A stretch of DNA of 64,000 bases from a virus (taxonomy: Duplodnaviria > Heunggongvirae > Uroviricota > Caudoviricetes), in IMG/VR virus record IMGVR_UViG_3300028563_000009; one strand, written 5' to 3'. The notes below the pieces were generated by a model. It was given only the letters and a program-made list of their open reading frames with translations, was not told the DNA's origin and ran no database searches. This document shows, in pieces, positions 19,680 to 40,624 of this stretch (the first letter of the stretch is position 1; each line of letters opens with the position of its first letter). Both the position numbers and the translations under genes were made by a program.

Positions 19680-19753
19680 GGGTCATTAGCTCAATGCAGA
19701 GCAACGCCCTTTTAAGGCGGAGGTTCTAGGTTCAAACCCCAGATGACCCACCA
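19680..19753 (+). tRNA. tRNA-Lys (anticodon UUU), CCA encoded
   Basis: Acceptor GGGTCAT/ATGACCC, D-arm GCTC..GAGC, anticodon loop CTTTTAA, T-loop TTCAAAC (one stem mismatch). Confidence 0.65.
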
Positions 19754-19755
19754 CC

Positions 19756-19830
19756 GGGGCTATAGCTCAATGGCAGAGCAGGGGACTCATAATCCCTTGG
19801 TTCTAGGTTCGAGTCCTAGTGGCCCCACCA
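19756..19830 (+). tRNA. tRNA-Met (anticodon CAU), CCA encoded
   Basis: Acceptor GGGGCTA/TGGCCCC, D-loop AATGGCA, anticodon loop CTCATAA, T-arm CTAGG-TTCGAGT-CCTAG. Confidence 0.8.
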
Positions 19831-19843
19831 AGAATGGAGAAAA

Positions 19844-20089
19844 ATGGCGAAAGTAAAAGCACAAGCAACTACTGACGAATTTAAGCCGGGGAGAAAGGTA
19901 AAGGACTATGATTATCCCGTCCTTCTCAAATCCACTGAAAGCGACTTGTTAGTGGTTAAATTGTCGAATAGCGTAGTATTCGCTATTTCAAGCAGTGGGA
20001 GAGTCACTGCTTACGACGAGCCGGAGACCTACGGAGATTTGTACTTGCCCGTAAATGGCACTATCGTTTTAACTTTCACGAACGACTAA
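19844..20089 (+). CDS. hypothetical protein between tRNA genes (81 aa)
   Basis: GGAGAAAA RBS. Confidence 0.5.
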   Translation: MAKVKAQATTDEFKPGRKVKDYDYPVLLKSTESDLLVVKLSNSVVFAISSSGRVTAYDEPETYGDLYLPVNGTIVLTFTND

Positions 20090-20093
20090 CCGT

Positions 20094-20171
20094 GGTCCCG
20101 TAGCTCAGATGGATTAGAGCATCTGCCTTCTAAGCAGAGGGTCGCAGGTTCGAGTCCTGCCGGGACCACCA
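20094..20171 (+). tRNA. tRNA-Arg (anticodon UCU), CCA encoded
   Basis: Acceptor GGTCCCG/CGGGACC, anticodon stem TCTGC/GCAGA loop CTTCTAA, T-arm GCAGG-TTCGAGT-CCTGC. Confidence 0.8.
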
Positions 20172-25234: not shown

Positions 25235-26188
25235 ATGGGCGGTGGTAGTTGGGATACACATTCATACACGTCTAATGCGGCAGACCGTAAGGCCAACAAA
25301 GTAGACGACTTCGCATACACACGCAGCGCAACCAAGGTTCACAAGAATCTCGATCCGCTGAGGATCAACAAGAAGGCAGATTCGAAACTGGAGTCTAGGG
25401 ATAGCAAGGAACATCCTAACTCGACGCCGGTTCTGATTAGCTTCGATGTGACTGGCAGCAATATCAACAGGGCTGTCGTGGCTCAGAAGAAGCTTCCGGC
25501 TCTGATGGACCTTCTCAAGAAGTATCTTCCGGATGCTCAGGTGGCATTCGCGGCTAACGATGATTACAAGGTGGAAGGCACCAATAGCATCCAGATTTCT
25601 GAGTTCGAGTCTGACAACAGAGCGGACGACCATCTTAGAAAGATTTGGTTGGTTGGGAACGGTGGCGGGAATTCGCAAGAGAGCTATGAGTTGATTCTGT
25701 ACGCGGCTGCTAGAAAGGTTTCTCTAGACTCCATCGACAAACGCGGTAAAAAAGGATACCTGTTCATGTATGCCGACGAGCGCATTCCTACTTCTGTCCT
25801 CAAGGGAGAAGTAAAGGATGTTTTCGGTGACGCACTGGAAGCAGATATTCCGGTTAAGGAAATCATCGAGGAAGCGCAACGCAACTTCAATGTGTTCCTT
25901 CTCTGGCCCCACGGTGGATACATTCCCGATGCGCGTGCTCAGTATGAAAAACTGTTCGGGGAAGACAACGTGATTACCCTCGAAGACCCAAGTCTTATTT
26001 GCGAAGTCATCGCAAGTACCATCGGGTTGTTCGAAGATCGCGCTACTCCTGCCTCGCTGGTTACTGACCTCGTTGCGGTTGGAGTGAGCGACAAGGACGC
26101 TAAGGCAGTCTCTAAGTCCCTCAAGAAGATTGAGAAGGGTGAGGAGTTAGCGGTAGCGGGTGGCGGAAAGAAGGCGAAGAGAGTATGA
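25235..26188 (+). CDS. von Willebrand factor A (vWA) domain protein (317 aa)
   Basis: MIDAS-like FDVTGS .. Lys-rich tail. Confidence 0.55.
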   Translation: MGGGSWDTHSYTSNAADRKANKVDDFAYTRSATKVHKNLDPLRINKKADSKLESRDSKEHPNSTPVLISFDVTGSNINRAVVAQKKLPALMDLLKKYLPDAQVAFAANDDYKVEGTNSIQISEFESDNRADDHLRKIWLVGNGGGNSQESYELILYAAARKVSLDSIDKRGKKGYLFMYADERIPTSVLKGEVKDVFGDALEADIPVKEIIEEAQRNFNVFLLWPHGGYIPDARAQYEKLFGEDNVITLEDPSLICEVIASTIGLFEDRATPASLVTDLVAVGVSDKDAKAVSKSLKKIEKGEELAVAGGGKKAKRV

Positions 26189-27201
26189 AGCAATACATAG
26201 GAATCGCTAGAGATCATTCCGGTTCCATGAGTAGTCTCAAGACTACGGCCACTTCGGACTACAATTCGAATGTGGAAAGTATTAAAGAGGGTGCCACTGA
26301 CCACGGTATTGACACTGTGGTCAGTGTTATCAAGTTCGGGGTAAGAGCGGCGACTGGTATTGAGTTCGAGGTTAAGAACTCAAGCGTGAATAGCCTTAAG
26401 AAACTAACCTCGTACGAGACGTATGGCTCTACTCCCTTGTTCGATAGTGTTGGAGAACTTATTGAGCAGTTGTCGAAAGTTCCAGATGCGGAAGACCCGG
26501 ATGTTTCATTCCTTATCATGGTGATTACGGATGGAGCGGAAAACTCAAGCCGGAATTACAATGGCAACAGTATCTCTAAGAAAATAAAGGAGTTGCAGAA
26601 CACCGATAAGTGGTCATTTGTGTTTCGCGTTCCTCAAGGGTACGGCCATAACCTTTCTCGACTTGGGATTCCAGAGGGGAATATCCTCGAATGGGAGCAA
26701 ACCAAACAAGGTTTTGAGAAGGCAACGCAGAGAACCAAGGAAGCGGTGACGCGATTCTATGCCGCTAGAGCCAGTGGGCAAAGACGTACTACCAGTTTCT
26801 ACTCCGATCTTAGCCAAGTATCGGTTAAAGAAGTGGAAAGAGAGTTGGTAGAAATTACCAAGCAAGTATCTTTTTGGTCGGTCCGAAAGAACTCTTCCGT
26901 GCGAGATTTTGTGGAAGACCACATCGGCGGGGGAATGATAATTGGAGCAGCCTTCTACCAGTTAACTAAACCCGAGAAGCTTCAGAGCTATAAGCTTATC
27001 TGTATTCGTAACAAGGCAACAGGAGAAGTTTTCTCCGGCGATGCCGCGAGAGATTTGCTCAACCTTCCTAGAGGGGGAGAGATTAAACTTCAACCGGGAG
27101 ACCACGGGAAGTTCGACGTGTTTATCCAGAGCACCAGCACAAATCGGAAGTTATTACCCAATACAGAGCTATTGTATTGGCCGAAAGTGAGGAGTCTTTA
27201 A
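26185..27201 (+). CDS. vWA domain protein (338 aa)
   Basis: IARDHSGSM (DxSGS MIDAS), ITDGAEN. Confidence 0.6.
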   Translation: MKQYIGIARDHSGSMSSLKTTATSDYNSNVESIKEGATDHGIDTVVSVIKFGVRAATGIEFEVKNSSVNSLKKLTSYETYGSTPLFDSVGELIEQLSKVPDAEDPDVSFLIMVITDGAENSSRNYNGNSISKKIKELQNTDKWSFVFRVPQGYGHNLSRLGIPEGNILEWEQTKQGFEKATQRTKEAVTRFYAARASGQRRTTSFYSDLSQVSVKEVERELVEITKQVSFWSVRKNSSVRDFVEDHIGGGMIIGAAFYQLTKPEKLQSYKLICIRNKATGEVFSGDAARDLLNLPRGGEIKLQPGDHGKFDVFIQSTSTNRKLLPNTELLYWPKVRSL

Positions 27202-27202
27202 G

Positions 27203-27424
27203 ATGAGCAGGCTAACTTTACAGAAAAGAAAGGACCCCCGAGACGACCAAGATACTTGGGGGTTCATGCTGGGAGACCTATTCTACGCCTTCTCGGACTT
27301 CGGAGGAAGCACCAGTAAGGAATTAGCTACTATAGGTCTGGACTGGATTAAACAGGGATACGGGAATCCTTTCGACGGAGAGGACCCTAATAACTACGGA
27401 CCAGTGTTGGAGGAGATAGAATAG
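27203..27424 (+). CDS. hypothetical protein (73 aa)
   Basis: Coupled start. Confidence 0.45.
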   Translation: MSRLTLQKRKDPRDDQDTWGFMLGDLFYAFSDFGGSTSKELATIGLDWIKQGYGNPFDGEDPNNYGPVLEEIE

Positions 27425-28566
27425 TGAAGGCAATCCTGCTTCAGGGTATGGCGTTCGGCGACGAGAGCAAAGGCGCGACAGTCGATGCTCTTTGTCGTAA
27501 GTTCCCTGTGGATCAGATAGTTCGGTATAATGGCGGTCCACAGACGGCCCATAACGTAGTAACACCACAAGGAGTACATCACACTTTCAGCCAGTTCGGG
27601 TCTGGAATGCTAGCTAACTCTACTGTTAAGACACACTTATCTCGTTTCATGTTGATTAACCCGTTTAGTATGATGAGGGAAGCCGCCGCGTTGCCTACCT
27701 ATACTCCGGTCTGGAACCGAGTTACCATAGACAGACAGTGCGTAGTCATCACTCCAATGCACAAAAGGCTTAATCAGTTAAGAGAGAAGGCAAGACGGGA
27801 AGGTGCCCACGGAAGTTGTGGGGTCGGTGTAGGGGTTGCCAGAGAACTCAGCCTGAGGTATGGTGATAGAGTGTTGTTAGTGGAAGACTTCGCGGACGAA
27901 AACAGAATCCACATGAAGCTATTGTTCATGTTCTCGCAGTTAGGTTTCGAGATAGACAGGCTACAGAGAGAACTGAAGATTCCGGATATGGACTTTGATT
28001 TCGAGCACATGGCCCGTGCTTACAAAGATTTCGGAAGTTACGCAAAAGTCGTTGACAAACTGGAGCCGAGTGACTTAATGTTGTTTGAAGGCGCTCAGGG
28101 CGTCCTGTTGGATGAGCGGAAGGAATTCCTGCCACACAACACTTGGACAAACTGCACCTTCGGAAACGCAGACAACCTCTTGTCAGAAGTCGGATGCAGT
28201 GATAGATTAAGGATTGGGTGCTTCAGATCGTACTTCACGAGGCACGGCCACGGGCCATTCCCAACGGAAGACGTGGACTTGACAAAATCCTTTAAGGAAG
28301 CGCATAATGGAACCGGAGAGTTTCAGGGTGCTTTTAGGTGTGGTAAATTTGATTTTGATTTAGCCAAAAAAGCACTTGACATTGTTGGCGGTTTGGATTA
28401 TCTTTCTATTAGTCACTTGGATCGGGCCTCGTTAGAAGTGGGCGATGAAATTTCAAGCACTCTAGGAGTTCCGGTAGGAGTCTGGGCCACGGGTCCCACA
28501 TCAAACCACCGTGGTTTTAACTGTGAGTTGATCGACAGACTTGACAAGGTTTTGGAAACGTGTTAA
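27424..28566 (+). CDS. adenylosuccinate synthetase (PurA) family enzyme, PurZ candidate (380 aa, GTG start)
   Basis: GDESKGATVD P-loop region, RYNGGPQTAHNV, AHGSCGVGVGVARE; GGAGGAG RBS. Confidence 0.65.
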   Translation: MKAILLQGMAFGDESKGATVDALCRKFPVDQIVRYNGGPQTAHNVVTPQGVHHTFSQFGSGMLANSTVKTHLSRFMLINPFSMMREAAALPTYTPVWNRVTIDRQCVVITPMHKRLNQLREKARREGAHGSCGVGVGVARELSLRYGDRVLLVEDFADENRIHMKLLFMFSQLGFEIDRLQRELKIPDMDFDFEHMARAYKDFGSYAKVVDKLEPSDLMLFEGAQGVLLDERKEFLPHNTWTNCTFGNADNLLSEVGCSDRLRIGCFRSYFTRHGHGPFPTEDVDLTKSFKEAHNGTGEFQGAFRCGKFDFDLAKKALDIVGGLDYLSISHLDRASLEVGDEISSTLGVPVGVWATGPTSNHRGFNCELIDRLDKVLETC

Positions 28567-28578
28567 AATGGATTTGGG

Positions 28579-28866
28579 AATAGCGTTAGAAACAGTTACT
28601 TCTCATGCTTAATGAATTGCCGAAAGGCAGTCTCTGTTTCGCTTGTTCTTTCCCATATTTGAAGTTCTAGGTAGTGTAGATACAGTTACTTCGGTTAAAG
28701 TAGCTTCGGCTATGAGAGGTTTCGACGCCTCACCTTCTTTCGAGAAGGGTTACTGTGTCGCTTGTGCTCCTAGATGTTTTAAGGTTCTAGGTAGTGAAGA
28801 CCACGGTTACTTCTTTGGTGATAAACACCGTATGTCGCTTATTCTCCTAGATAAGATTAGCCTAGT
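28579..28866 (+). repeat. three tandem imperfect repeat units (R1-R3): conserved flanks GTAGTGTAGAnACAGTTACTTC / CTGTnTCGCTTGTTCT..TTCTAG bracketing variable hairpin inserts
   Basis: Direct reading; flank segments AAACAG/CTGTTT, ATACAG/CTGTGT co-vary; UUCG tetraloop hairpins in R2 insert. Confidence 0.7.
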
Positions 28867-29083
28867 TCGCAAGAGCGCGAGTCGGCAAACCCCCGGGAAC
28901 CCTTGATTTCGAATATATAGGGGCAACAAGGCAATGGTATGCGACAGTGGCTAAAACAGGGGCATTATACGGGTAGCTCCCGTGCCCCGAAGGTTGTAGG
29001 GTGGCAGAGAGTATTAGAATTGCGGGTCCTGTTACGGACTCAACGCTGGCGACGAATCTCCAGCCCCTACTAAAATTCAGTAG

Positions 29084-29217
29084 CAGTAGTGTTGAAACAA
29101 TTCCTTCTTCCAAACCGTAGGTCATGGGTTCGAATCCCATCTATCAGGGTTTCGATAGTAGCTCAGTTGGTAGAGCAACAGTACAAGGTGTTTCGCTCGT
29201 TCTCTGCTATAATCTGG
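29084..29217 (+). ncRNA. repeat unit R5 carrying tRNA-like module (T-arm ATGGG-TTCGAAT-CCCAT, acceptor-like hairpin CTATC/GATAG, D-arm TAGCTCAGTTGGTAGAGCA)
   Basis: Module at 29124-29177; flanks TGAAACA / TGTTTCG complementary. Confidence 0.4.
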
Positions 29218-29339
29218 TAACGGGTTTCACCGGTCGTGGCGGAGTCGTTAAAGAGAACAAAAACGGGAATGACTCTAACCGGTAAAGTGACCACGAATTT
29301 GCTTGCCGCCTAGAGCGTGATTATGTTGCCAATTTTTTA

Positions 29340-29476
29340 GGTATAGTGTTAGATACAGTTACTTCAATGCTAATGAAGAAACGTCGGTTCGAATCCGACT
29401 CCCGGTGTGTGCCGGGATCGTCTAGGGGTTAGGACGCTAAAATATCTGTGTCGCTTGTTCTTACCTAAGTTCTAAG
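29340..29476 (+). ncRNA. repeat unit R4 carrying complete but circularly permuted tRNA-like cloverleaf (AC arm, T-arm, acc-3', 5-nt loop, acc-5', D-arm)
   Basis: 29362-29436: CTTCA-ATGCTAA-TGAAG, GTCGG-TTCGAAT-CCGAC, TCCCGGT/GCCGGGA, GTCT-AGGGGTTA-GGAC. Confidence 0.4.
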
Positions 29477-29480
29477 AAAT

Positions 29481-29660
29481 ATGAGAATAACCCAGTGTTG
29501 TTTAGCATTTACGTCGGCTGTGGCGTTAGTAGTTGCCGCAATAGCGTCCAAACCACAAGGACTATCGAGTCCTTTAGAAGCATTAGGATTCTTGGTTTTG
29601 CTTGGAAACGTGGCGATACAAGTTTTTGGCGTCGTCATCGCAGTACACGAACTGGAGTAG
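29481..29660 (+). CDS. small membrane protein (59 aa)
   Basis: Weak RBS; hydrophobic. Confidence 0.3.
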   Translation: MRITQCCLAFTSAVALVVAAIASKPQGLSSPLEALGFLVLLGNVAIQVFGVVIAVHELE

Positions 29661-29661
29661 T

Positions 29662-30021
29662 ATGGGTATAAAAGACCTACTTGAAAATGAAATGAAGGCC
29701 AGCCACGAGTTTTCTAAAAGTAACTTTGGTGCTCAGGTGGGAGCGGCATACCCAGAGTTAGTAAAAGAAGTTTCTTCTAGCGATCCCGTATGCGCGACGT
29801 TGATGGTCGAATTGTGTATTGCTGGCATTACTGGAAAACAGGTAGCGGACAGTCTTAAGAAGCATAATGACTCAAAGGATTTACAGAAAGCTATCCTTGA
29901 GAATCTTCCCTCGTTTAACGGGCAGTTGTCCATGCTATACTGGGGTATCAACATAGGGCGTAAACTGGAAAAAGAAAGCCTCGAAGTTAACAAGCTTGAG
30001 GAAATGTTTGGAGGGAAATGA
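29662..30021 (+). CDS. hypothetical protein (119 aa)
   Basis: GGAG RBS; ATGA coupling to next gene. Confidence 0.45.
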   Translation: MGIKDLLENEMKASHEFSKSNFGAQVGAAYPELVKEVSSSDPVCATLMVELCIAGITGKQVADSLKKHNDSKDLQKAILENLPSFNGQLSMLYWGINIGRKLEKESLEVNKLEEMFGGK

Positions 30022-31385
30022 AAACCAATACTGCAATTAAGACCCCCGCTCCGAAGACGCACGAAGGTGCCACGGCAGCGCGTATCAATCCTGAGCAACA
30101 GCTTCGTCGTGTTGTTCTAGCATCCATGTTGTTTGAAGACACCTTCTATTTGGACGGAGTTAGCTCTGCCCAGATCGTTGAAGACTCGGTTCAGGAAGTT
30201 CTTAAGAAAAAGAATGGCCCTCAAATCGTGTCCGATCTGGCATACGAAACCCGTACTAACGGTAAACTGCGCCATATCCCGTTGTTCTTGGCCCTGACTC
30301 TTGTTAGAGCAGGCAACAAAAATACCAAACTCGGCGAGGAATGCCGTGCCGTGGTTGCGGAAACGCTGACCAAGATCATCCAGCGTCCGGACGAACTGGC
30401 GGAGTTTTTAGCTCTGTACTGGAAGGACAAGAAAGTTCCTTTGTCCAATCAGGTTAAGAAAGGACTCGCTGCTGCGTTCCAAAAGTTTGACAGGTACTCT
30501 CTGTCGAAGTACGCGAACCGGGAAGGCTCTATCTCTCTGCGCGACGTGTTGTTCTTGGTACACCCGCGTCCTCTGAACTCCGATCAACAGGAGTTGTGGA
30601 ACGAGTTGGCCGAGAAGAAATTGGTTGCTCCGGATACTTGGGAGTCGAATCTGTCTGCTGGTGCGGATAAGAAAGAGACTTTCATTCGTCTGATCGAAGA
30701 GAAGAAGCTGGGTGCTTTGGCACTACTCCGCAACTTGCGTAACATGCAACAGGCGGGAGTCCCGGATGATACCATCCGCAAAGCTTTGTCCGAAATGAAG
30801 ACCGAACGTGTTCTTCCTTTCCGGTATATCTCTGCCGCTAACTACGCTCCGCAACTGGAGCCTGAGTTGGAACAGGCCATGTATCGTAGCCTTAAGGATC
30901 ACGAGAAGCTGTCCGGCAAGACCGTTCTGTTGGTGGACAATTCTGGAAGCATGGGTTCTCCCGTTTCCGGAAGATCGCAAATCAGCAGAGCCGATGCCGC
31001 TCAAGCACTGGCAATGTTGGTCCGTGAGATCAGCGAAACCAGCGAAGTGATTGTGTTTGGTACGACGGCTGGAAGCATTCCTCCCCGTAGAGGATTTGCT
31101 CTCCGCGATGCTGTCAGACATAGCCAACACGGAGGCGGGACTAACACGGAAGTTGCTAAGAAACTAGCAGATAAAGTTGGATACGACAGACTCATCATCT
31201 TCACCGATGAACAGTCGCATCAGGCTCTCTCTGCTCCTAAGGAAGGCTCCAAGGCTTACGTCATCAATGTGGCCGCATACCAGAACGGAGTTGGGTATGG
31301 GAAGTGGGTTCATATTGACGGGTTCTCGGAAGCTGCGGTAGACTTTATCCAGCAGTATGAGAAAGAGAAAAATGAGCTTGCTTAA
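30018..31385 (+). CDS. rsr: Ro60/Rsr orthologue (TROVE domain + C-terminal vWA), 455 aa
   Basis: LRHIPLFLALTLVRAG, ALLRNLRNM (TROVE-like), C-terminal LLVDNSGSMGS (MIDAS) .. IIFTDEQSH. Confidence 0.6.
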   Translation: MKTNTAIKTPAPKTHEGATAARINPEQQLRRVVLASMLFEDTFYLDGVSSAQIVEDSVQEVLKKKNGPQIVSDLAYETRTNGKLRHIPLFLALTLVRAGNKNTKLGEECRAVVAETLTKIIQRPDELAEFLALYWKDKKVPLSNQVKKGLAAAFQKFDRYSLSKYANREGSISLRDVLFLVHPRPLNSDQQELWNELAEKKLVAPDTWESNLSAGADKKETFIRLIEEKKLGALALLRNLRNMQQAGVPDDTIRKALSEMKTERVLPFRYISAANYAPQLEPELEQAMYRSLKDHEKLSGKTVLLVDNSGSMGSPVSGRSQISRADAAQALAMLVREISETSEVIVFGTTAGSIPPRRGFALRDAVRHSQHGGGTNTEVAKKLADKVGYDRLIIFTDEQSHQALSAPKEGSKAYVINVAAYQNGVGYGKWVHIDGFSEAAVDFIQQYEKEKNELA

Positions 31386-31578
31386 AATACTGGCGGGTCT
31401 CTCGTGGGTCGTAATTGGTTTTTACGTCCTACAAGGGGCCTTCTGGCTTATGACCTACCCGAGCGACTTTACTTTCTTGGGCGGTATACTCTCGGTATTC
31501 CTTTACGGCTTTGTAACCTTCAAAATGATACAATACGCAGTAAGAAAATTCTTTAAGGAGAATAATGAACCTCGTTAA
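31372..31578 (+). CDS. small two-TM membrane protein (68 aa)
   Basis: Upstream partner of SPFH gene. Confidence 0.4.
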   Translation: MSLLKILAGLSWVVIGFYVLQGAFWLMTYPSDFTFLGGILSVFLYGFVTFKMIQYAVRKFFKENNEPR

Positions 31579-32461
31579 GTTGGCTCTGGCAGGATTCCTA
31601 ATGACTTTCCTCGCCGGTTGCGGAGTAGATAGAATTGGACCCGGCCACGTCGGTATTAAGATCAACATGGCTGGCGATAACAAAGGTGTGCTGGATACAC
31701 CAGTGAGTACGGGATGGGTGTTTTATAACCCCCTCGGCACCACGGTGATCGAGTACCCAACCAACATGAAGAATGTAGTGTGGACTAAAAGCCTCGATGA
31801 AGGCAACGCGAAGGACGAAAGCATTACGTTCACCAACAAAGAGAGCATGGTGGTTAACGCCGACTTCTCTCTGAACTACTACCTACTTCCTGAGAAGGTT
31901 CCGGCCTTTTATGTGAAGTTTCTCCAGAGGGATTTGGACGATTTCAGCAACGGGTACCTTCGTACCATCGCAAGAAATTGCGTGAACGACAGTGCTGGTA
32001 AGTATGAGATCGCACAGATCATGGGGGACAACACTGCCTTCCTGCTAGATAGTAAGGCATGTATTAACAAAACTCTCACGTCTTATGGTATCTTTGTCGA
32101 TAGCTTTGGCTTGATTGGTGCTCCGCGTCCTCCTCCGGTGGTAATCGAAAACATCAACGCCAAGATTCAGGCGCAACAGATCGCTCTCCAGAAGCAGAAC
32201 GAACTCCTTCAGGTTCAGGCAGATGCCGCGAAACAGGTGGCCGCTGCTGAAGGTAAGGCTAAGTCTATGGTCACTGAGGCCAACGGAGAAGCGGAAGCTA
32301 ACCGTATCAGAGCAGCTAGCATTACCCCGGCTATCATCCAGAAGCTTTCTCTGGAGAACCAGCACGACGCTATCTGGCGTTGGGATGGACACATGCCAAC
32401 CACTGTAGCCAACGGCGATAAGGGGGGACTGTTGTTCAACATCCCTACGGACAGTAAGTAA
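31565..32461 (+). CDS. SPFH/band-7 domain lipoprotein (298 aa)
   Basis: Lipobox FLAGCG; SPFH core plus coiled-coil QAQQIALQKQNELLQVQADAAKQ. Confidence 0.55.
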   Translation: MNLVKLALAGFLMTFLAGCGVDRIGPGHVGIKINMAGDNKGVLDTPVSTGWVFYNPLGTTVIEYPTNMKNVVWTKSLDEGNAKDESITFTNKESMVVNADFSLNYYLLPEKVPAFYVKFLQRDLDDFSNGYLRTIARNCVNDSAGKYEIAQIMGDNTAFLLDSKACINKTLTSYGIFVDSFGLIGAPRPPPVVIENINAKIQAQQIALQKQNELLQVQADAAKQVAAAEGKAKSMVTEANGEAEANRIRAASITPAIIQKLSLENQHDAIWRWDGHMPTTVANGDKGGLLFNIPTDSK

Positions 32462-32847
32462 TGGGTATTGAAGAAGTAGTAGAAAAAACAGTAACCATGA
32501 GCTTTGAGGATTTTGGGTACTTGTCCAAGACTCAAAGATTCTGGGACGAACAAGCTGAGTGGTCCCGAGCCACGTTTGGTAGCGATACCGAGCGTGGCCC
32601 ACTCGGACCTCTAAAGCATCTAGAGAAGGAAACCGAGGAAGCACGGCAGTCTTGGATTAAGCAAGACATTCCGGAAGCTAAGGTTGAGATCGCTGATTGT
32701 CTTTTCCTTACATTCGATGCGGCACGTAGAGCAGGCATGTCTTTAGACGACCTTCTAGACACAGCTTTCCGGAAACTGGAAATTAACAAACAACGCGAGT
32801 GGCAGAAACCAACGAACGACGGGCCAGTGGAGCATGTGAGGGAATGA
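32461..32847 (+). CDS. MazG-like nucleotide pyrophosphohydrolase (128 aa)
   Basis: LKHLEKETEEA .. EIADCLFLTFDAARRAGMSLDDLLDTAFRKLEINKQR (EExxE..ExxD). Confidence 0.55.
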   Translation: MGIEEVVEKTVTMSFEDFGYLSKTQRFWDEQAEWSRATFGSDTERGPLGPLKHLEKETEEARQSWIKQDIPEAKVEIADCLFLTFDAARRAGMSLDDLLDTAFRKLEINKQREWQKPTNDGPVEHVRE

Positions 32848-33233: not shown

Positions 33234-34241
33234 ATGAAAAACATATATCGCTGTGAATTCGGAAGTCATCTGTACGGTACTAATACGGAGGCTTCCGATC
33301 ACGATTTTAAGTCGATCCATATCCCATCCTCGGAGCAGATTCTACTTCAGAGGGTTCAGGATAGTACCGGCCATGTCGTGAAGAGGGAAGAAGGGGATAG
33401 AAACACCAAGGACGATACTGATGACGAAAGTTACTCCCTTCAGAGATATTTATCTCTTCTAGCCGAAGGGCAGACCGTAGCTATCGATATGTTGTTCGTC
33501 CCTAAACCTCTGATTACAAGTGAAATATGGGAAGAAATCGTTGCGAACAAGGACAGGCTGGTCACTAAGAAGTCTTATTCCTTCGTGGGGTATTGTCGCA
33601 CTCAGGCCAATAAGTATGGTATAAAGGGTAGTAGGGTGTCAGCGGCTAAAGAGGCTATGGACTTCTTCGAGGAGGCAATTACTTTCAAAGGGCCGTTGGC
33701 TAAAGTAGGTGACTTGGGTTTGTTCCCCGCTGGAGAACACTCTCACACGGTGGTCAAGGAAACCACTCCCGGAAAGTTTGAGACGTACTTCGAGTGCTGC
33801 AATCGTATGGTAGGATATAAGAACACTCTCAAGGAAGCGCACCATATCTTTTCCCGCATCTACGAGGAGTACGGCAAGAGAGCCAAGCTGGCCGAGTCCA
33901 ACAATGGGATCGACTGGAAGGCTTTGAGTCACGCAGTAAGGGTAGGACATGAGGCTTTGGCTTTGTTATCAACTGGCGAAATTTCTTTTCCGTTGTTTAA
34001 CGCACCGCATTTACTTGATATTAAAAAGGGCAGACTCCCCTACAAGGAAGTTGCTCAAGAAATAGAAGAGTTGCTGGAGGACGTGGAAGCGGCCTCTAAA
34101 ACATCCCCGCTCCGGAAAGAGCCGGACTACAAGTACATCGATGGGTTGGTAAGGAGAGTTTATGGTAGAGAAGTTTTTAACGATTACTGTTTGGACAGTA
34201 CTTACCACAATGGCGTATGCTCTGTTGCAGGGGAGGTTTAA
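33234..34241 (+). CDS. Pol-beta superfamily nucleotidyltransferase (335 aa)
   Basis: GSHLYGTNTEASDHDF (GS-x9-DhD) plus downstream Asp. Confidence 0.5.
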   Translation: MKNIYRCEFGSHLYGTNTEASDHDFKSIHIPSSEQILLQRVQDSTGHVVKREEGDRNTKDDTDDESYSLQRYLSLLAEGQTVAIDMLFVPKPLITSEIWEEIVANKDRLVTKKSYSFVGYCRTQANKYGIKGSRVSAAKEAMDFFEEAITFKGPLAKVGDLGLFPAGEHSHTVVKETTPGKFETYFECCNRMVGYKNTLKEAHHIFSRIYEEYGKRAKLAESNNGIDWKALSHAVRVGHEALALLSTGEISFPLFNAPHLLDIKKGRLPYKEVAQEIEELLEDVEAASKTSPLRKEPDYKYIDGLVRRVYGREVFNDYCLDSTYHNGVCSVAGEV

Positions 34242-34586: not shown

Positions 34587-34669
34587 GGCCGCGTGGTGAA
34601 ATCGGCAGACACACTTGCCTTAGGAGCAAGCGCGAAAGCATGGGGGTTCAAGTCCCTCCGTGGCCACCA
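34587..34669 (+). tRNA. tRNA-Leu (anticodon UAG), type II, CCA encoded
   Basis: Acceptor GGCCGCG/CGTGGCC, anticodon stem CTTGC/GCAAG loop CTTAGGA, long variable arm, T-loop TTCAAGT. Confidence 0.75.
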
Positions 34670-34671
34670 GT

Positions 34672-34763
34672 GCGCTAGTGGCGAAGCTGGTTGAAACGCA
34701 TCGGACTTAAAATCCGACACTGATAAGTTCACAACGGGGGTTCGAACCCCTCCTAGCGTACCA
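34672..34763 (+). tRNA. tRNA-Leu (anticodon UAA), type II, CCA encoded
   Basis: Acceptor GCGCTAG/CTAGCGT, anticodon stem TCGGA/TCCGA loop CTTAAAA, long variable arm, T-loop TTCGAAC. Confidence 0.7.
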
Positions 34764-35887: not shown

Positions 35888-37960
35888 GTGTACCTTTATT
35901 TAGACACAGAATTTAGATCAGAATTAGACCTTGAAGACGTTGGCCACTATAAGTATCTGAACCACACAAGTACAGAGCTTCTTATGGTGGCTTACGCTTT
36001 TGGGGATGAACCTATTAAGATTTGGGAAACCCATAAAGGCCCCATTCCAGAGGAGTTAAAGCAGGGTCTTGAGGACTACTTACAGATCATTGTTGCGTGG
36101 AACTCCGCCTTCGAGAGAATCGCTTTCCGTAGGCATTTAGGAATCAACATACCTCCTGAACGGTGGGAAGACCCGATGATCCGCTCTCGGTATATGTCTA
36201 TGCCGGGAAGGTTAGAAAAAGTCGGCAAGATTCTAGATATCAAGGCCAAGAAGGTCACGGAGTTCTTTGTTAAAGAACAATCCATGATAAGCCTCTTCTC
36301 TTTTCCTTTACGGATGGGAGGAGATATAACGCTATGGGGTTTAGAACCAACAACATACAGGGACTGGGACACCCACCCGAAAGAGTGGGCCGCGTTCTGT
36401 GACTACTGCAAGACCGACGTGGCCGCGATGCGGGAAATCTTGTATCGGTTAGAAAAGTTTCCACTTCCGGACTTCGAGTACGAGCTATTCGCGCTCAATG
36501 AGGAGATCAACGACTACGGGATATACACGGATAAGATGCTGATCGAAGGCGCAGGGATCGTCGTAGATCGGGAATTTGCCGCGCTAAAGAAGGAGTTCAC
36601 AGAGATCACGGGGTTAATAAACCCTCGTTCGAACAAGTCCGTTCTGTTCTTTGCTAGGCAGCATGGGTATACCTTCTCTTCCCTGAACAAGCAGTATGTT
36701 AACAGAGCATTAAAAGGTGAGTGTACTCTAGACGCTTTGGGCCGACGAGCGTTGGAGCTACGTCTACAACTCGGTAAGAGTAGCGTTAGCAAGCTTGAGG
36801 CGGTCCGTAGCGCCGTCGAAGATGATCGGAGGATACGTGGGCTGTTCAACTTCATGGGAGCGGCTAGAACAGGCCGCTGGACCTCGGGAATCGTGCAAGT
36901 ACAGAACCTTGTGAAGGCGTCTAAGGAAGTCGAAGCGAACTTCGATCTTGCCTTGGATTTGCTTAAGGCCGGGAATTACGAACGAATTAAGCAGGAGTTC
37001 AAGAGTCCTATCGACGTAGCGGCCTCAGCCATACGCCCGATGCTCCGCGCTCCTGAGGGTAAGAAGTTCATTATAGCGGACTTAAACGCCATCGAGACTA
37101 GGGGAGCAGCATGGGTTGCGGACTGCCAGCCTCTCATGGAAGTGTTTAGGCAGGGCAGATGCCCTTACATATCCTTTGCCGCCCAGATGGACCCATCCCG
37201 CAGCTATGATGAGTTATACAAGGAGTACAAAGCAGGCAACAAGACCACTCGTACTAACGCCAAGCCCCCTACCTTAGGGTGTGGGTACGGCCTTACTCCC
37301 GGCATCATCGATGTAGATGAGGATGGTAACACGGTTAAGACGGGTCTGTTGGGGTACGCTGCGGCTATGGGTATCGAACTCCTCCCTGAGTACGCAGAGA
37401 AAGCTGTGCAAGTTTACCGGAATGCCTACCGCGAGATACCTAAGTTCTGGTATGATTTACATGCGTGTGTAGTAGAAGTAATCGAGCACGGTGGGCTGGT
37501 ACAGATCGGCCCCCTTACCATCGAGAAGATTGGGAGGGTGTTGTGTGTTTGGCTTCCGTCCGGTAGAGCACTACACTACATCAACCCGAGAGTAAGGGAA
37601 GTAGAGAGGGTATCGCTACGCACTGGTAGACCCTACAAGACTACTGAGATTACTATTGAGGGGATAGATCAGAAGACCCACCAGTGGCAGGATATAACAA
37701 CCCACGGGTCTAAGATTTTCGAGAACGTTGTCCAAGCAATTTGCAGGGACATACTCGGTCATGGTATGCTGGAAGCGAAACGTGATGGCTTCCCCATCGT
37801 CCTAACCTGCCACGATGAGATTGTGGCAGAGGTCGAGAACGGTTCTCCGTTAGGGGTACCAGAGCTAGTAGACTGTATGACTAGGAAGATTAGTTGGGCC
37901 GGAGGGTTTCTAACCGGAGCGGAAGGCTTCGAGACGGATTACTACAGGAAGGATGGGTAA
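35888..37960 (+). CDS. family A DNA polymerase with 3'-5' exonuclease (690 aa, GTG)
   Basis: Exo I LDTEF; motif A ADLNAIETR; motif B KPPTLGCGYG; motif C CHDEI. Confidence 0.8.
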   Translation: MYLYLDTEFRSELDLEDVGHYKYLNHTSTELLMVAYAFGDEPIKIWETHKGPIPEELKQGLEDYLQIIVAWNSAFERIAFRRHLGINIPPERWEDPMIRSRYMSMPGRLEKVGKILDIKAKKVTEFFVKEQSMISLFSFPLRMGGDITLWGLEPTTYRDWDTHPKEWAAFCDYCKTDVAAMREILYRLEKFPLPDFEYELFALNEEINDYGIYTDKMLIEGAGIVVDREFAALKKEFTEITGLINPRSNKSVLFFARQHGYTFSSLNKQYVNRALKGECTLDALGRRALELRLQLGKSSVSKLEAVRSAVEDDRRIRGLFNFMGAARTGRWTSGIVQVQNLVKASKEVEANFDLALDLLKAGNYERIKQEFKSPIDVAASAIRPMLRAPEGKKFIIADLNAIETRGAAWVADCQPLMEVFRQGRCPYISFAAQMDPSRSYDELYKEYKAGNKTTRTNAKPPTLGCGYGLTPGIIDVDEDGNTVKTGLLGYAAAMGIELLPEYAEKAVQVYRNAYREIPKFWYDLHACVVEVIEHGGLVQIGPLTIEKIGRVLCVWLPSGRALHYINPRVREVERVSLRTGRPYKTTEITIEGIDQKTHQWQDITTHGSKIFENVVQAICRDILGHGMLEAKRDGFPIVLTCHDEIVAEVENGSPLGVPELVDCMTRKISWAGGFLTGAEGFETDYYRKDG

Positions 37961-38212
37961 ATGTTTTGGGATAAAAGGTGCGACCAATGCAGCACTAAAA
38001 CTAAAGAAAAATGTCTATGCCGTACCTGCCGCGAGAACAGGAACCACGATTGGTGGAGATTGGGATATGTAAAAGGGTTAGAAAAAGCGAAGCAAAACAA
38101 ACTACCCCAAGATGTTCTCAAGAAAATGCTGGTTTTGTGCCATCCCGATAAGCACGGTAACTCCCCTGTTTCTAACGAAGTAACTAGGTGGCTTTTGGAG
38201 AGGAGAAAGTAA
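37961..38212 (+). CDS. zinc-finger protein with partial J-domain (HPD), 83 aa
   Basis: CDQCS..CLCRTC; KKMLVLCHPDKHGN. Confidence 0.45.
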   Translation: MFWDKRCDQCSTKTKEKCLCRTCRENRNHDWWRLGYVKGLEKAKQNKLPQDVLKKMLVLCHPDKHGNSPVSNEVTRWLLERRK

Positions 38213-38664
38213 TGTCGAAGATGAATAGGTTGGGTAATGTTACCAACAAGTATCAAGGGGATTTCAAAAGAGTTCTATGTGTTTGTTCGGGAGGGATACT
38301 TAGATCGCCTACCACTGCCGTTGTGTTATCTCAACCTCCCTACAACTACAATACCAGAGCCGCAGGAACAGACCAAGAGTTTGCCCTCGTGCCTGTCGAT
38401 GACGTTCTCATTGAGTGGGCAGACGAGATCGTGTGCATGGAGAAGGAGCACGAGGAAGCGTTAAGAAGTAAGTTCAAGATCGAAGCTCCCATCTACGTGC
38501 TGGGTATCGAAGATAGGTATCCTTACAGAGACCCCCTGCTAATCAGCCTTATCACCCAGAACTACAATGACATACAGATAATGAAGATGGGACTGGGGCC
38601 TAAGTATACGGTAGGGGACCACATCAACGAGAAAGGTTTGAAAAAGCTAGATGAAGAAGGATAA
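38212..38664 (+). CDS. low-molecular-weight protein tyrosine phosphatase (150 aa)
   Basis: P-loop VLCVCSGGILRSPTA (C-x5-R). Confidence 0.6.
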   Translation: MSKMNRLGNVTNKYQGDFKRVLCVCSGGILRSPTTAVVLSQPPYNYNTRAAGTDQEFALVPVDDVLIEWADEIVCMEKEHEEALRSKFKIEAPIYVLGIEDRYPYRDPLLISLITQNYNDIQIMKMGLGPKYTVGDHINEKGLKKLDEEG

Positions 38665-39580
38665 TCCTTTGTTCGCCATAGCAGCCGACAACTACGTGAA
38701 TGAAATCTTGGGGTTGAACAAGTACGGCAGCTTTAAGTCTAACAAAAGAATAGTCAAACATCTAATACAAGAGTTCGGTCACAAGCGGGTGCAGAGCGTA
38801 ACGCGCCAAGATATCCAGAGGTATATCGGTAAGTTAAACGAAACAATGGGCACTGAGTATCTCCGCCATCACCTCAGTACGTTTCGTGGTATAATGGAGT
38901 ATGCCGACGACGACTGGGTAATGCCAAGGGTAAAACTGCCCAAACGAATCAAGCCGAAGCAGGATTTTTACTCGTTCGAAGAAGCCCGAAAACTGATGGA
39001 AATAACCTCTGGTCAGGATAAGGTTTTGGTCATGGTACTGGCAGAGACTGGTTGTAGGTTAGGGGAAGCATTGGCTTTAACCCCGGATGATATAAAACCG
39101 TACGAGGTCAACATCACTAGGAACGTGTACGAGGGGTTCGTGCAGGATACACCGAAGACAGATTCCAGTATCCGGAAAGTTACAATCTCTGAAAGACTTT
39201 ACAATCAGATACTTACACTGAAGAGAAAACAAAACGAGTTTATTTTCCAGAGTAAGACCGGGAGGCCGGAGTGGCCACAGATTCTAAGTGTAAGATTCCG
39301 GGAGATTTGTGACAAGCATTCGGTGGAATACAAAGGGTTCCACGCATTCCGCAGAGGGAACATCACAGAGTTGTGTACGGTAATTGGAATCCCTGAACGC
39401 ATCGTGGGTGTTAGGGTCGGGCATTTATCAAGCGGCACCACCCTCGGGGTGTATTGCAAAACTTTGCCGGGGTGTGATAAAATCTGGATTCCAGAGATTG
39501 AAAAAAGATTGTACTTGACAGAAGACAAACGAAATGATAGCGTAATTAGAGAGGAAATAAATGGCATTACCGACAATTAA
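38651..39580 (+). CDS. int: tyrosine recombinase / integrase (309 aa)
   Basis: LAETGCRLGEAL (box I R), HAFRRGNITEL (H-x-x-R), LGVY. Confidence 0.65.
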   Translation: MKKDNPLFAIAADNYVNEILGLNKYGSFKSNKRIVKHLIQEFGHKRVQSVTRQDIQRYIGKLNETMGTEYLRHHLSTFRGIMEYADDDWVMPRVKLPKRIKPKQDFYSFEEARKLMEITSGQDKVLVMVLAETGCRLGEALALTPDDIKPYEVNITRNVYEGFVQDTPKTDSSIRKVTISERLYNQILTLKRKQNEFIFQSKTGRPEWPQILSVRFREICDKHSVEYKGFHAFRRGNITELCTVIGIPERIVGVRVGHLSSGTTLGVYCKTLPGCDKIWIPEIEKRLYLTEDKRNDSVIREEINGITDN

Positions 39581-40328
39581 CATCAAGGGTAAAGAGTATA
39601 CAATGGTCAAGGACCGTATACTTTTCTTCAATGAAACCTACGAAAACGGAAGCATCACCAACAGACTTGTGTCAGCACCCGATGATCCTAGAGTAGTCAT
39701 TGAGTCCACAGTAGTTCCAGACGTGTCAAACCCTCACCGTTATTTTAGGGATTACTCCCAAGCGGTAGTGGGTGACGGTCTGATTAACAAACAAGCGGCT
39801 CTAGAGAACGCTTCTACCTCAGCGGTGGGTAGAGCATTAGCTCTAATGGGCATTGGAGTTATCGAGAGCGTAGCCTCCGCAGACGAGATCAAGAAAGCGA
39901 CTTCTTTCGGCAAGCCGGTGAACACGGTGGCACAGGTAGAGAAGGCTACCAGTAAATCAACCAGCTTTGAGTACGGGGCAAACAGGGTAAACCCGGAGAT
40001 CACGGACGATGATATTCCTAAGTTCGACGGTCCGGTGAGAACGACTGAGAACTTATCCCCAGAAGCAGTAGCTGTGGCGGATCATCTTATTCATTTTGTT
40101 CCTCTAACCCAAGATAGAAACAAACAGATTCAGGATAGACTTGCCGAGTTAGTGAAAGCTAAGACGTTGGACAGACGTAAGTTGCAAGTGTTTCTAGATA
40201 AAGAGCATGACGGCAAACGTAGCATCGATGTTCCGGCTGATAAGTGGGAGCAGACCATTAAGAAGATTGAGGACGCCGTTAAGGACGGAGCAGAGTCTAT
40301 CAAGACGCTGTTTAAGAAGGGGGACTAA
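39561..40328 (+). CDS. ERF-family single-strand annealing protein (255 aa)
   Basis: ASTSAVGRALALMGIGV resembles P22 Erf ATSSYARKYCLNGLFGI. Confidence 0.5.
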   Translation: MALPTINIKGKEYTMVKDRILFFNETYENGSITNRLVSAPDDPRVVIESTVVPDVSNPHRYFRDYSQAVVGDGLINKQAALENASTSAVGRALALMGIGVIESVASADEIKKATSFGKPVNTVAQVEKATSKSTSFEYGANRVNPEITDDDIPKFDGPVRTTENLSPEAVAVADHLIHFVPLTQDRNKQIQDRLAELVKAKTLDRRKLQVFLDKEHDGKRSIDVPADKWEQTIKKIEDAVKDGAESIKTLFKKGD

Positions 40329-40624
40329 TGCTGACCAAAGCTGAGGAGGAAAGACTAAATCTTTTACAAGAGGAGTGCGCTGAGATTATTCAGGCAGTCA
40401 GTAAGATAAAGAGATTTGGTTTCGACTCTAAGAAGCCGCGAGACCCGGACGGACCAAACAACAAAGAGCATTTGGAAACAGAACTGGGAGGGTTAGCAGC
40501 GGTTCTCGACCTTATGATCGTAGCTGGGGATGTTGATGAAGAACACTGCGAGGCCGCTCAAATGGCCAAAGCGTGTAGCATCCATACTTACACCAAACAC
40601 CAAGGAGAGGAATGCGAAGCATAG
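40328..40624 (+). CDS. hypothetical protein, possibly small MazG/HisE-like (98 aa)
   Basis: EECAEI .. ETELGGLAAVLDLM weak EExxE..ExxD pattern. Confidence 0.4.
   Translation: MLTKAEEERLNLLQEECAEIIQAVSKIKRFGFDSKKPRDPDGPNNKEHLETELGGLAAVLDLMIVAGDVDEEHCEAAQMAKACSIHTYTKHQGEECEA

What the first reader, a model, noticed from the sequence alone, without database searches (positions are those of the whole stretch)
28579..29476. Covariation in repeat flanks supports a conserved closing helix
Left-flank and right-flank segments change in a compensatory way between units. R1 has GAAACAG with CTGTTTC, R2 and R4 have GATACAG with CTGTGTC (G-U pairs), and R5 has TGAAACA with TGTTTCG. A helix maintained across five copies while the enclosed insert varies from 17 to about 80 nt is the signature of a structured RNA family. 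It is not that of protein-coding DNA, a CRISPR array or a simple DNA repeat.
Basis: seen in the sequence. Interest (0 to 1): 0.6.

Follow-up and report, generated by a model that had tools for sequence, protein, structure and literature searches.

The report
Phage Y RNA array beside Ro60
The five repeats are a tandem array of small structured RNAs of the Y RNA type, the partners of the Ro60/Rsr RNA quality-control protein, and they sit just upstream of a phage Ro60 gene; this is a real RNA family, but one whose kind is already known in bacteria and phages.

Summary
Five units on the + strand (28573-29470) share a conserved bipartite stem that encloses inserts of about 14 to 81 nt. Within the window the closing helix shows A-U to U·G and A-U to G-C changes, and an outer basal stem differs between units but stays complementary.

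Across 37 units from the window and 15 related viral contigs, 92% of cells pair (62% when shuffled). Sixteen of 18 pairs show double changes. No shuffle or slid control reaches the observed covariation score.

These are Y RNA-like RNAs:
- A Ro60/Rsr gene (TROVE plus Ro60 vWA domains) lies 550 nt downstream on the same strand.
- Two units carry a T arm, closed acceptor stem and D arm, and one of them matches Rfam YrlA below threshold.
- The conserved 5' motif RGYG(A/U)AG resembles the published Rsr-binding motif GNCGAAN0-1G.
- UUAC matches the conserved YUAY of YrlA.
- Three units are minimal hairpins, like YrlB.

Relatives interleave such units with tRNA arrays. Rsr binding and any downstream function are inferred, not shown.

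Verdict: a new, divergent member of a known kind. Rfam's threshold misses it. Interest is moderate to low.

The parts
28541..28569 (+). Sigma-70-like promoter TTGACA-17-TAAAAT with TG before the -10 hexamer, just upstream of unit 1 and overlapping the end of the PurA-like ORF. Candidate start of one transcript covering the array.
   Evidence: 11 of 12 matches. This is a consensus match only; no expression data.
28573..28658 (+). Unit 1, a minimal Y RNA-like unit. Basal stem GGGAA/UUCCC, bulged U, AG pairing with CU, CG/CG, closing helix AAACAG/CUGUUU, UUACUUC. The 31-nt insert has two small hairpins; the first is homologous to the anticodon-like hairpin of unit 5.
   Evidence: MFE -27.1 kcal/mol, z -3.9; model R1, 51.8 bits, E 2e-13.
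28664..28777 (+). Unit 2. Y-type stem (CUAGG/CCUAG; AUACAG/CUGUGU with U·G) enclosing a 59-nt insert with three short hairpins, two of them with UUCG-type loops.
   Evidence: z -2.7; 42.5 bits, E 2e-10.
28784..28854 (+). Unit 3, the smallest unit. Y-type stem (UCUAGG/CCUAGA; ACGG/CCGU plus GAC/GUC) closing a loop of about 19 nt that begins UACUUC. This is the YrlB-like long-hairpin form.
   Evidence: 51.3 bits, E 2.5e-13; 41.7 bits with filters off.
28855..29074 (+). Spacer 1 inside the array, unexplained. It is G+C-richer with several local hairpins and has no Y-type flanks.
   Evidence: No similarity in the related loci. No Rfam match at E<=10. It does not fold better than shuffles (z -0.9).
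29080..29209 (+). Unit 4, a YrlA-type tRNA-like Y RNA. Stem GUAGCAG/CUGCUA(U), bulged U, AG pairing with CU, closing helix GAAACA/UGUUUC extended by CCUU/AAGG. The insert has variable loop AGGUC, T arm AUGGG-UUCGAAU-CCCAU, a closed 5-bp acceptor-like stem CUAUC/GAUAG, UA, and D arm GCUC-AGUUGGUA-GAGC. The tRNA body is opened at the anticodon-loop position.
   Evidence: Rfam RF02553 YrlA, full-length match 29093-29198, 37.5 bits, E 2.3e-6, gathering score 69; (ARAGORN calls no tRNA here). Model R1 did not detect it; it is the most divergent unit, with UCCUUC in place of UACUUC.
29210..29335 (+). Spacer 2 inside the array, unexplained. A 7-bp helix UGGUAAC/GUUGCCA could close it.
   Evidence: no homology in the loci; z -1.75; no Rfam match.
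29336..29470 (+). Unit 5, a tRNA-like Y RNA with a complete, circularly permuted cloverleaf. Stem UUAGGUA/UACCUAA, closing helix GAUACAG/CUGUGUC, UUA, anticodon-like arm CUUCA-AUGCUAA-UGAAG, variable loop AAAC, T arm GUCGG-UUCGAAU-CCGAC, 7-bp acceptor stem UCCCGGU/GCCGGGA closed by GUGU, D arm, and an A-rich linker.
   Evidence: MFE -43.1 kcal/mol, z -2.9; 42 bits, E 3e-10; partial tRNA match, 24 bits. In one search the un-permuted sequence is called a tRNA by ARAGORN, with anticodon GCU in 215 of 267 accepted constructs; the native order gives none.
29481..30021 (+). Two small ORFs between the array and rsr: 29481-29660 (59 aa, hydrophobic) and 29602-30021 (139 aa; the start codon is uncertain). 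In most relatives the last Y unit instead abuts rsr.
   Evidence: no Pfam family; position of units in the loci.
30018..31385 (+). Rsr / Ro60 orthologue, 455 aa, with TROVE and Ro60 vWA domains. The presumed protein partner of the five RNAs.
   Evidence: TROVE 5e-16, vWA_Ro60 1e-7; PDB 9KOP/9L5Y, Thermus phage phiLo Ro60, E 5e-27, residues 11-448; phrog_850, RNA-binding protein, 1.5e-55.

Best explanation
The region is a tandem array of five Y RNA-like non-coding RNAs. They are probably transcribed from one promoter on the + strand and belong to the phage's Ro60/Rsr gene 550 nt downstream. Every unit has the same scaffold: a 6-bp basal stem of free sequence, a bulged U, an R-Y pair and a G-C pair, a conserved asymmetric internal loop (5' YG-(A/U)-AG, 3' CGYU-UGUU), a 6-8 bp closing helix of free sequence, then UUACUUC. 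By analogy with characterised Y RNAs, this scaffold is the Rsr-binding module. The variable insert is the effector module. In units 4 and 5 it is a tRNA mimic (YrlA type). In units 1 to 3 it is a short hairpin or set of hairpins (YrlB type). The likely function is that of known bacterial and phage Ro60-Y RNA particles. The RNA gates or tethers the Ro60 ring to other RNA-handling enzymes, such as PNPase and tRNA-recognising enzymes. That fits a phage RNA quality-control or repair module, given the neighbouring RlaP nucleotidyltransferase, Band7/SPFH and vWA genes. Shown here: the repeats, the helices and their covariation, the strand, the tRNA-like anatomy, and the exclusive association with rsr. 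Inferred: transcription and processing, Rsr binding, and every downstream function.
For: Structure. One position shows G-C in 25 units and A-U in 12, with no exception. G·U pairs occur only on the + strand reading. Association with rsr: model R1 finds 37 units at E<=0.001 (38 at E<=1) in the window and 15 related loci, all on the rsr strand and within about 2.5 kb of the gene, and none elsewhere in the 64-kb window. In about 0.9 Mb of unrelated bacterial DNA it hits only twice, both times in loci that also carry an rsr homologue. Family resemblance: unit 4 and seven tRNA-like units of relatives give full-length YrlA matches of 33-49 bits. The published YrlA features are present in recognisable form: the GNCGAAN0-1G motif, the conserved YUAY that begins the V loop, the V, T, AS and D stem-loops, and location within 4 kb of Ro60 (PMC4201824). 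The exact GGCGAAG occurs in L009. [quoted passage not shown]
Against: No unit reaches the Rfam YrlA gathering score of 69 bits, and most of the score comes from the T and D arms. None of the five window units has the literal GNCGAAN0-1G; they have AGCGUUAG, AGUGUAG, AGUGAAG, AGUGUUG and AGUGUUAG. There is no expression, processing or binding evidence. The two spacers inside the array (about 220 and 126 nt) are unexplained. The single-unit fold z-scores are modest (-1.9 to -3.9).
Confidence: 0.85

Rival explanations
1. The conserved stem is a processing scaffold, not a protein-binding module. It would be a double-stranded cleavage site, for example for RNase III, that releases the enclosed small RNAs (tRNA-like pieces and hairpins) from a polycistronic precursor. 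The released inserts would be the functional products.
For: The units are tandem and probably co-transcribed. In relatives they are interleaved with tRNA genes, which are themselves excised from precursors. The stem sequence is free apart from its internal loop.
Against: A pure cleavage stem would not need an invariant bulged U, the invariant loop bases G13, U126, U127 and C128 (model columns), and the conserved UACUUC. The 5' motif resembles the published Rsr-contact motif. The units occur only beside rsr. The smallest inserts are 8-15 nt loops, too small to be a product.
Confidence: 0.07
2. Units 4 and 5 are decayed or dimeric tRNA genes, and the shared flanks are only recent duplicates of one segment. 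In that case the apparent compensation is inherited and is not selected for structure.
For: Within the window the closing helices are nearly identical. Units 1, 2 and 5 plainly share ancestry (families D3-D5). The 5x5 energy table shows little partner preference for the closing helix. Chen et al. warn that dimeric tRNAs can mimic YrlA.
Against: ARAGORN and Rfam find no tRNA there. The T arm and D arm are joined by a self-complementary acceptor-like hairpin with a loop of 4-8 nt, not by two unrelated acceptor halves. Relatives at 41-59% Rsr identity keep both helices while the sequence changes freely.
Confidence: 0.03
3. The tRNA-like units are circularly permuted tRNA genes. After cleavage in the acceptor loop and CCA addition, they would yield a functional, aminoacylatable two-piece tRNA, and the flanking stem would merely hold the halves together.
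For: Un-permuting unit 5 and five units from relatives gives sequences that ARAGORN accepts as complete tRNAs, each with one dominant anticodon. Unit 5 has a 7-bp acceptor stem. [quoted passage not shown]
Against: Units 1 to 3 and many units of relatives have the same stem but no tRNA body, so the stem has a role of its own. Unit 5 pairs a Ser-type anticodon with a short variable loop and a Glu-like D arm (read from the sequence), so its identity elements are inconsistent. The brute-force junction search is permissive. The break between positions 26 and 27 carries 3 nt and 9 nt linkers.
Confidence: 0.04

Closest known systems
YrlA (Rfam RF02553), the tRNA-like bacterial and phage Y RNA (Chen et al. 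2014, PMC4201824)
   Same: Encoded within 4 kb of a Ro60/Rsr gene on the same strand. The 5' and 3' ends pair into a long stem that carries a conserved purine-rich 5' motif. YUAY begins the V region. There is a T arm with UUCGAAU, a closed acceptor-like stem-loop and a D arm with GG. Several copies per locus were already reported, as were 22 phages. Units 4 and 5 here, and seven units of relatives, give full-length sub-threshold matches.
   Different: Scores of 33-49 bits against a gathering score of 69. The motif is RGYG(A/U)AG rather than GNCGAAN0-1G in most units. The 3' strand CGYUUGUUCY and the motif UACUUC are conserved in this group. Unit 5 and several relatives keep a full 5-bp, 7-nt anticodon-like arm, so the cloverleaf is complete and is opened between positions 26 and 27 rather than at the anticodon loop.
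YrlB / Yrn2, the second, smaller Y RNAs of Salmonella, M. smegmatis and D. radiodurans
   Same: A long hairpin with the Ro-binding motif and a small pyrimidine-rich loop. It is co-encoded and co-transcribed with the tRNA-like Y RNA. Units 1 to 3 fit this description.
   Different: There is no sequence homology to test, because YrlB has orthologues only within Salmonella enterica serovars. Here the minimal and tRNA-like units share one scaffold and look like deletion derivatives of each other.
Thermus phage phiLo Ro60 with Yrl1 and Yrl2 (PMC12135203; PDB 9KOP, 9L5Y)
   Same: A phage-encoded Ro60 with Y RNA-like RNAs immediately upstream; binding was shown experimentally. The window protein aligns over residues 11-448 at E 5e-27.
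   Different: Two RNAs there and five here. Those were found through a CGAA motif.
Metazoan Y RNAs (Ro60-binding bulged helix GGUCCGA / CUUGACU)
   Same: A terminal stem with a single bulged pyrimidine, and a conserved 3' strand containing CUUG (here CGCUUGUUCC; human Y RNAs have CACUUGACUA, recalled from memory).
   Different: No detectable homology. The effector loop is a tRNA mimic or a small hairpin rather than a pyrimidine-rich internal loop.
Circularly permuted tRNA genes (Cyanidioschyzon merolae, Thermofilum pendens; recalled from memory)
   Same: Gene order is 3' half, then linker, then 5' half. ARAGORN calls a tRNA only after un-permuting.
   Different: Those are cut at a bulge-helix-bulge motif, circularised and matured into real tRNAs. 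Here the junction is a conserved Ro-type stem that is also used by units without any tRNA body.

Membership tests
Bacterial/phage Y RNA, YrlA type | Encoded within about 4 kb of a Ro60/Rsr (TROVE) gene, usually on the same strand | tested here: met
   rsr at 30018-31385 (+) is 548 nt after unit 5. In the related loci all units lie on the rsr strand beside the gene.
Bacterial/phage Y RNA, YrlA type | The 5' and 3' ends pair into a stem that closes the RNA | tested here: met
   Two covarying helices: 92.4% of cells paired, 16 of 18 pairs with double changes.
Bacterial/phage Y RNA, YrlA type | GNCGAAN0-1G motif near the 5' end (the proposed Rsr contact) | tested here: inconclusive
   No window unit has the literal motif. 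The units have AGCGUUAG, AGUGUAG, AGUGAAG, AGUGUUG and AGUGUUAG. The family consensus is RGYG(A/U)AG, and the exact GGCGAAG is seen in L009. The position and purine pattern agree; the C is usually U.
Bacterial/phage Y RNA, YrlA type | Conserved YUAY beginning the V region | tested here: met
   UUAC occurs in 4 of 5 window units (unit 4 has UUCC). UAC is nearly invariant in the 37 units.
Bacterial/phage Y RNA, YrlA type | tRNA-like module: T stem-loop, acceptor-like stem-loop, D stem-loop | tested here: met
   Present in units 4 and 5. Absent from units 1 to 3, which therefore fit only the YrlB-like class.
Bacterial/phage Y RNA, YrlA type | Score at or above the Rfam RF02553 gathering threshold (69 bits) | tested here: not met
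   37.5 bits for unit 4; 33-49 bits for units of relatives; nothing at the gathering threshold.
Bacterial/phage Y RNA, YrlA type | The RNA is bound by and stabilised by Rsr; tRNA-type modifications are present | not testable with these tools
   This needs immunoprecipitation or EMSA, and modification mapping.
CRISPR array | Identical direct repeats of fixed length separated by unique spacers of similar length | tested here: not met
   The repeat is bipartite and self-complementary around each insert. Copies are 63-94% identical. Spacing is 90 to 673 nt.
Canonical tRNA gene | A contiguous cloverleaf detectable by ARAGORN or Rfam RF00005 | tested here: not met
   No tRNA is called in 28573-29470. 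There is only a partial 24-bit match in unit 5.

The most novel reading that the evidence does not exclude
This phage lineage may use one Ro60-binding scaffold as a display cassette for a repertoire of anticodon-stem-loop and whole-tRNA mimics. The anticodon-like loops follow N-U-NNN-A-A and differ between units and phages (GCU, UGU, CUU, GUU, UUG, UCU). The cassettes are interleaved with the phage's own tRNA arrays. In this reading the Rsr-Y RNA particles would act on specific tRNAs. They might serve as decoys or sensors for host anticodon nucleases, or as guides that bring damaged tRNAs to the neighbouring repair enzymes (RlaP and others). They would not be generic tethers to PNPase.
Probability: 0.1. 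Interest if true: 0.7.

Novelty: new member of a known kind. Interest (0 to 1): 0.35.

Why it matters
Three things follow.

1. A divergent branch of Y RNAs escapes the Rfam YrlA threshold, so phage and metagenome annotation currently misses these RNAs. The covariance model built here finds 33 units in the 15 related viral loci where Rfam reports none.

2. One locus carries five Y RNAs on an identical scaffold with very different effector modules. That is a natural experiment for asking what the effector module does.

3. The perfectly covarying R-Y pair next to an invariant bulged U pins down the likely Ro60 recognition element, and mutagenesis could test it.

None of this changes the current picture of Ro60-Y RNA biology.

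Tried and rejected
- GenBank phage search with 28400-31400, distant mode: only weak hits to TROVE genes, so there is no annotated close relative.
- Rfam at gathering threshold on the window and the loci: no family in the region.
- The two spacers inside the array: no similarity to any related locus, no Rfam match, and folds no better than shuffles. They remain unexplained.
- The regex parser for T, AS and D arms mis-parsed several units, so I dropped it and read the units by eye.
- Model R1 with filters off on the whole window gave lower scores and lost units 2 and 5. It is useful only to show that nothing else in the window resembles the units.
- The genome-contig scan with TGGTGAAGN{8,10}TACTTC was a poor use of the single scan. 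With 14 specified bases about 10^4 chance matches are expected in 596 Gb. 117 of the 120 loci returned are noise. They served as a negative control, and three of them carry an rsr homologue (two titled as Acidobacteriota MAGs).
- Coding reading: the ORF 28643-28906 (87 aa, TTG start) crosses units 1-3, but it is one of many short ORFs and has no support.
- PurZ identity of the upstream PurA-like gene: below both NCBIfam cut-offs, so unresolved.
- Two review papers on bacterial Y RNAs were not held in the library.

Full report
**What is in the sequence.** Between 28573 and 29470 on the + strand there are five units. Each has a left flank ending in (U)UACUUC and a right flank beginning with the complement of the bases just before that motif, followed by CGCUUGUUCU. 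GAAACAG pairs with CTGTTTC in unit 1. GATACAG pairs with CTGTGTC in the units at 28673 and 29345, where an A-U pair has become U·G. TGAAACA pairs with TGTTTCG in the unit at 29088. Outside this closing helix lies a second, basal stem that differs far more between units: GGGAA/UUCCC, CUAGG/CCUAG (twice), UAGCAG/CUGCUA and UUAGGUA/UACCUAA. Inserts run from about 14-19 nt (unit 3) to 80-81 nt (units 4 and 5). A sigma-70-like promoter, TTGACA-17-TAAAAT with an extended -10 TG, sits at 28541-28569. Each unit folds as expected, with z-scores of -1.9 to -3.9.

**Is it more than chance?** Within the window alone the closing helix is weak evidence, because the copies are recent duplicates. In a 5x5 table of duplex energies, units 1, 3 and 4 do not prefer their own 3' strand. 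The basal stem does prefer its own partner in every unit, though units 2 and 3 share identical strands.

The decisive evidence comes from relatives. The protein encoded at 30018-31385 retrieved 18 IMG/VR loci at 41-59% identity. A simple scan found the same architecture beside that gene in most of them, with freely varying helices. For 27 hand-defined units, the results were:

| Helix | Cognate duplex (kcal/mol) | Non-cognate duplex (kcal/mol) | Permutations as good |
|---|---|---|---|
| Closing helix | -7.1 | -2.9 | 0 of 10,000 |
| Basal stem | -8.7 | -3.6 | 0 of 10,000 |

I then built a covariance model from stem-only constructs (A1, R1). It found 37 units at E<=0.001 (38 at E<=1), all on the + strand and all beside the gene. 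These included more than a dozen units from loci or positions not used to build the model. It found nothing elsewhere in the 64-kb window.

On the resulting alignment, 90.7% of cells pair against 62% when shuffled, and slid controls give covariation scores of 0.11-0.19 against 0.775 observed. A mutual-information scan showed that the purine after the bulged U pairs with the last pyrimidine of GUUCY rather than where I first placed it. That pair is G-C in 25 units and A-U in 12, with no exception. With this correction, 92.4% of cells pair and 16 of 18 pairs show double changes. RNAalifold on the unfitted MAFFT alignment predicts the same bulged U and the same helices on its own.

As a negative control, about 0.9 Mb of unrelated bacterial DNA gave only two hits. 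That DNA came from an otherwise unproductive pattern scan. Both hits lie in loci that also carry a homologue of the same protein.

**What it is.** The downstream protein has a TROVE domain and a Ro60-type vWA domain. It aligns over nearly its full length with the solved Ro60 of Thermus phage phiLo (E 5e-27). It is therefore an Rsr/Ro60 orthologue.

Unit 4 gives a full-length match to Rfam YrlA, the tRNA-like bacterial Y RNA, at 37.5 bits (E 2e-6) against a gathering score of 69. Seven tRNA-like units of relatives give 33-49 bits. Nothing passes the threshold.

Chen et al. 2014 define YrlA by these features (PMC4201824):
- location within 4 kb of Ro60;
- a 5' motif GNCGAAN0-1G, thought to contact Rsr;
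- a conserved YUAY that begins the V region;
- the V, T, acceptor-like (AS) and D stem-loops.

[quoted passage not shown] The units here fit both classes. The family consensus reads:

- basal stem (6 bp), bulged U, R-G
- Y-G-(A/U)-A-G
- closing helix
- N-UACUUC, then the insert
- closing helix 3' strand
- CGYU-UGUU-CY
- basal stem 3' strand

RGYG(A/U)AG is one base away from GNCGAAG, and the exact GGCGAAG occurs in L009. UUAC is the YUAY. Units 4 and 5 carry T, AS and D stem-loops. Units 1 to 3 are the hairpin class. Two Y RNA-like RNAs encoded upstream of a phage Ro60 gene have been shown experimentally to bind it (PMC12135203). A review of jumbo phages already notes TROVE proteins with a tRNA-like partner as part of phage RNA repair systems (PMC7824862).

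**Anatomy of the tRNA-like units.** Unit 4 is opened at the anticodon-loop position, as in canonical YrlA. After the D arm come A26 and ACAGU, which pairs with ACCGU before the variable loop AGGUC. The Y stem continues from there through CCUU/AAGG.

Unit 5 is different. Its parts, in order after the closing helix, are:
1. UUA
2. a complete hairpin, CUUCA-AUGCUAA-UGAAG, with a 5-bp stem and a 7-nt loop that has U at position 2 and A at positions 6 and 7
3. a 4-nt variable loop
4. the T arm
5. a 7-bp acceptor stem closed by GUGU
6. a D arm
7. an A-rich linker

When I cut such units in the acceptor loop and rejoin them in tRNA order, ARAGORN accepts them as complete tRNAs. Each gives one dominant anticodon: GCU for unit 5; UGU, CUU, GUU, GUU and UUG for five relatives. 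The native order gives no call, and the unit 4 type gives inconsistent calls. That search tried many junctions, so it supports the anatomy but does not prove function. The minimal units of relatives often keep only this anticodon-like hairpin and the A-rich linker, for example UUCA-CUCGCAA-UGAA. They look like tRNA-like units that have lost the T, acceptor and D parts.

**Context.**

| Window coordinates | Feature |
|---|---|
| 26185-27201 | vWA protein |
| 27424-28566 | PurA-family protein |
| 31565-32461 | Band7/SPFH protein |
| 32461-32847 | dATP/dGTP pyrophosphohydrolase |
| 33234-34241 | RlaP nucleotidyltransferase |
| 34587-34763 | two tRNA-Leu genes |
| 35888-48864 | phage replication genes |

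In relatives, rsr and the Y units sit inside large tRNA arrays. One contig (L008) also carries a short RNase P RNA.

**How it most likely works.** Shown: the conserved, covarying scaffold; the + strand reading; the modular inserts; and the exclusive link to rsr. Inferred from the characterised systems: the array is transcribed from the upstream promoter and cut in the A/U-rich linkers. Each RNA then binds Rsr through the bulged-U stem and the purine motif. The insert decides what the particle interacts with; for the tRNA mimics that would be tRNA-recognising enzymes or PNPase. I put 0.85 on this reading.

The rivals are:
- a pure processing stem (0.07);
- permuted functional tRNAs (0.04);
- decayed tRNA duplicates (0.03).

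The invariant unpaired bases, the units with 8-15 nt loops and the cross-locus covariation argue against them.

**Novelty.** The kind is known, and several Y RNAs per locus as well as phage examples have been published. New here is a divergent lineage that Rfam's threshold misses. It has five units on one scaffold, a sharply defined recognition element, and a variant in which the tRNA mimic keeps a full anticodon-like arm. I rate it a new member of a known kind, with interest 0.35.

**Left open.** Two spacers inside the array (28855-29074 and 29210-29335) have no relatives, no Rfam match and no significant fold.

Noticed in passing
L008 1081-1356 (+) (IMG/VR contig IMGVR_UViG_3300020583_000158): A bacterial class A RNase P RNA match (126.8 bits, gathering score 100). 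It spans the full 367-position model in only 276 nt and lies inside a phage contig's array of about 25 tRNA genes, which also holds rsr and Y RNA units. A phage-encoded, shortened RNase P RNA would be worth a look of its own.
   Followed up: no
window 27424-28566 (+) and 32461-32847 (+): A PurA-family protein of 380 aa scores far below the NCBIfam cut-offs for both PurA (130 versus 402 bits) and PurZ (36 versus 300). A dATP/dGTP pyrophosphohydrolase lies nearby. Together they could indicate a modified-purine (2-aminoadenine-like) pathway, but the PurZ assignment is not supported by these scores.
   Followed up: partly
window 31565-32461, 33234-34241, 26185-27201 (+): A Band7/SPFH protein, an RlaP (RNA ligase-associated Pol-beta) nucleotidyltransferase and a vWA protein flank the rsr and Y RNA locus. 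This gene set is described for RNA repair systems, yet I identified no RNA ligase among the window ORFs I scanned.
   Followed up: partly
window 28855-29074 and 29210-29335 (+): Two stretches inside the Y RNA array have no Y-type flanks, no homologue in 18 related loci and no Rfam match. The second could be closed by a 7-bp helix UGGUAAC/GUUGCCA, and a perfect TATAAT lies at 29208-29213.
   Followed up: partly
L039 (uncultured Acidobacteriota MAG, 703-kb contig), L050 (Acidobacteriaceae MAG, 574-kb contig), L104: rsr homologues (48-54% identity to the window protein) lie next to the same type of Y unit and, in L039, next to tRNA genes in large bacterial MAG contigs. These may be prophages or a clue to the host.
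   Followed up: partly
L008 5646-5866 (+) (same in L012): A unit with the standard Y scaffold encloses a 181-nt insert that is not tRNA-like, so the scaffold can carry much larger modules than in the window.
   Followed up: no
window 19680-20171 and 34587-34763 (+): Five ordinary tRNA genes (Lys-UUU, Met-CAU, Arg-UCU, Leu-UAG, Leu-UAA) lie in two small clusters away from the Y array. In relatives the Y units lie inside the tRNA arrays.
   Followed up: no
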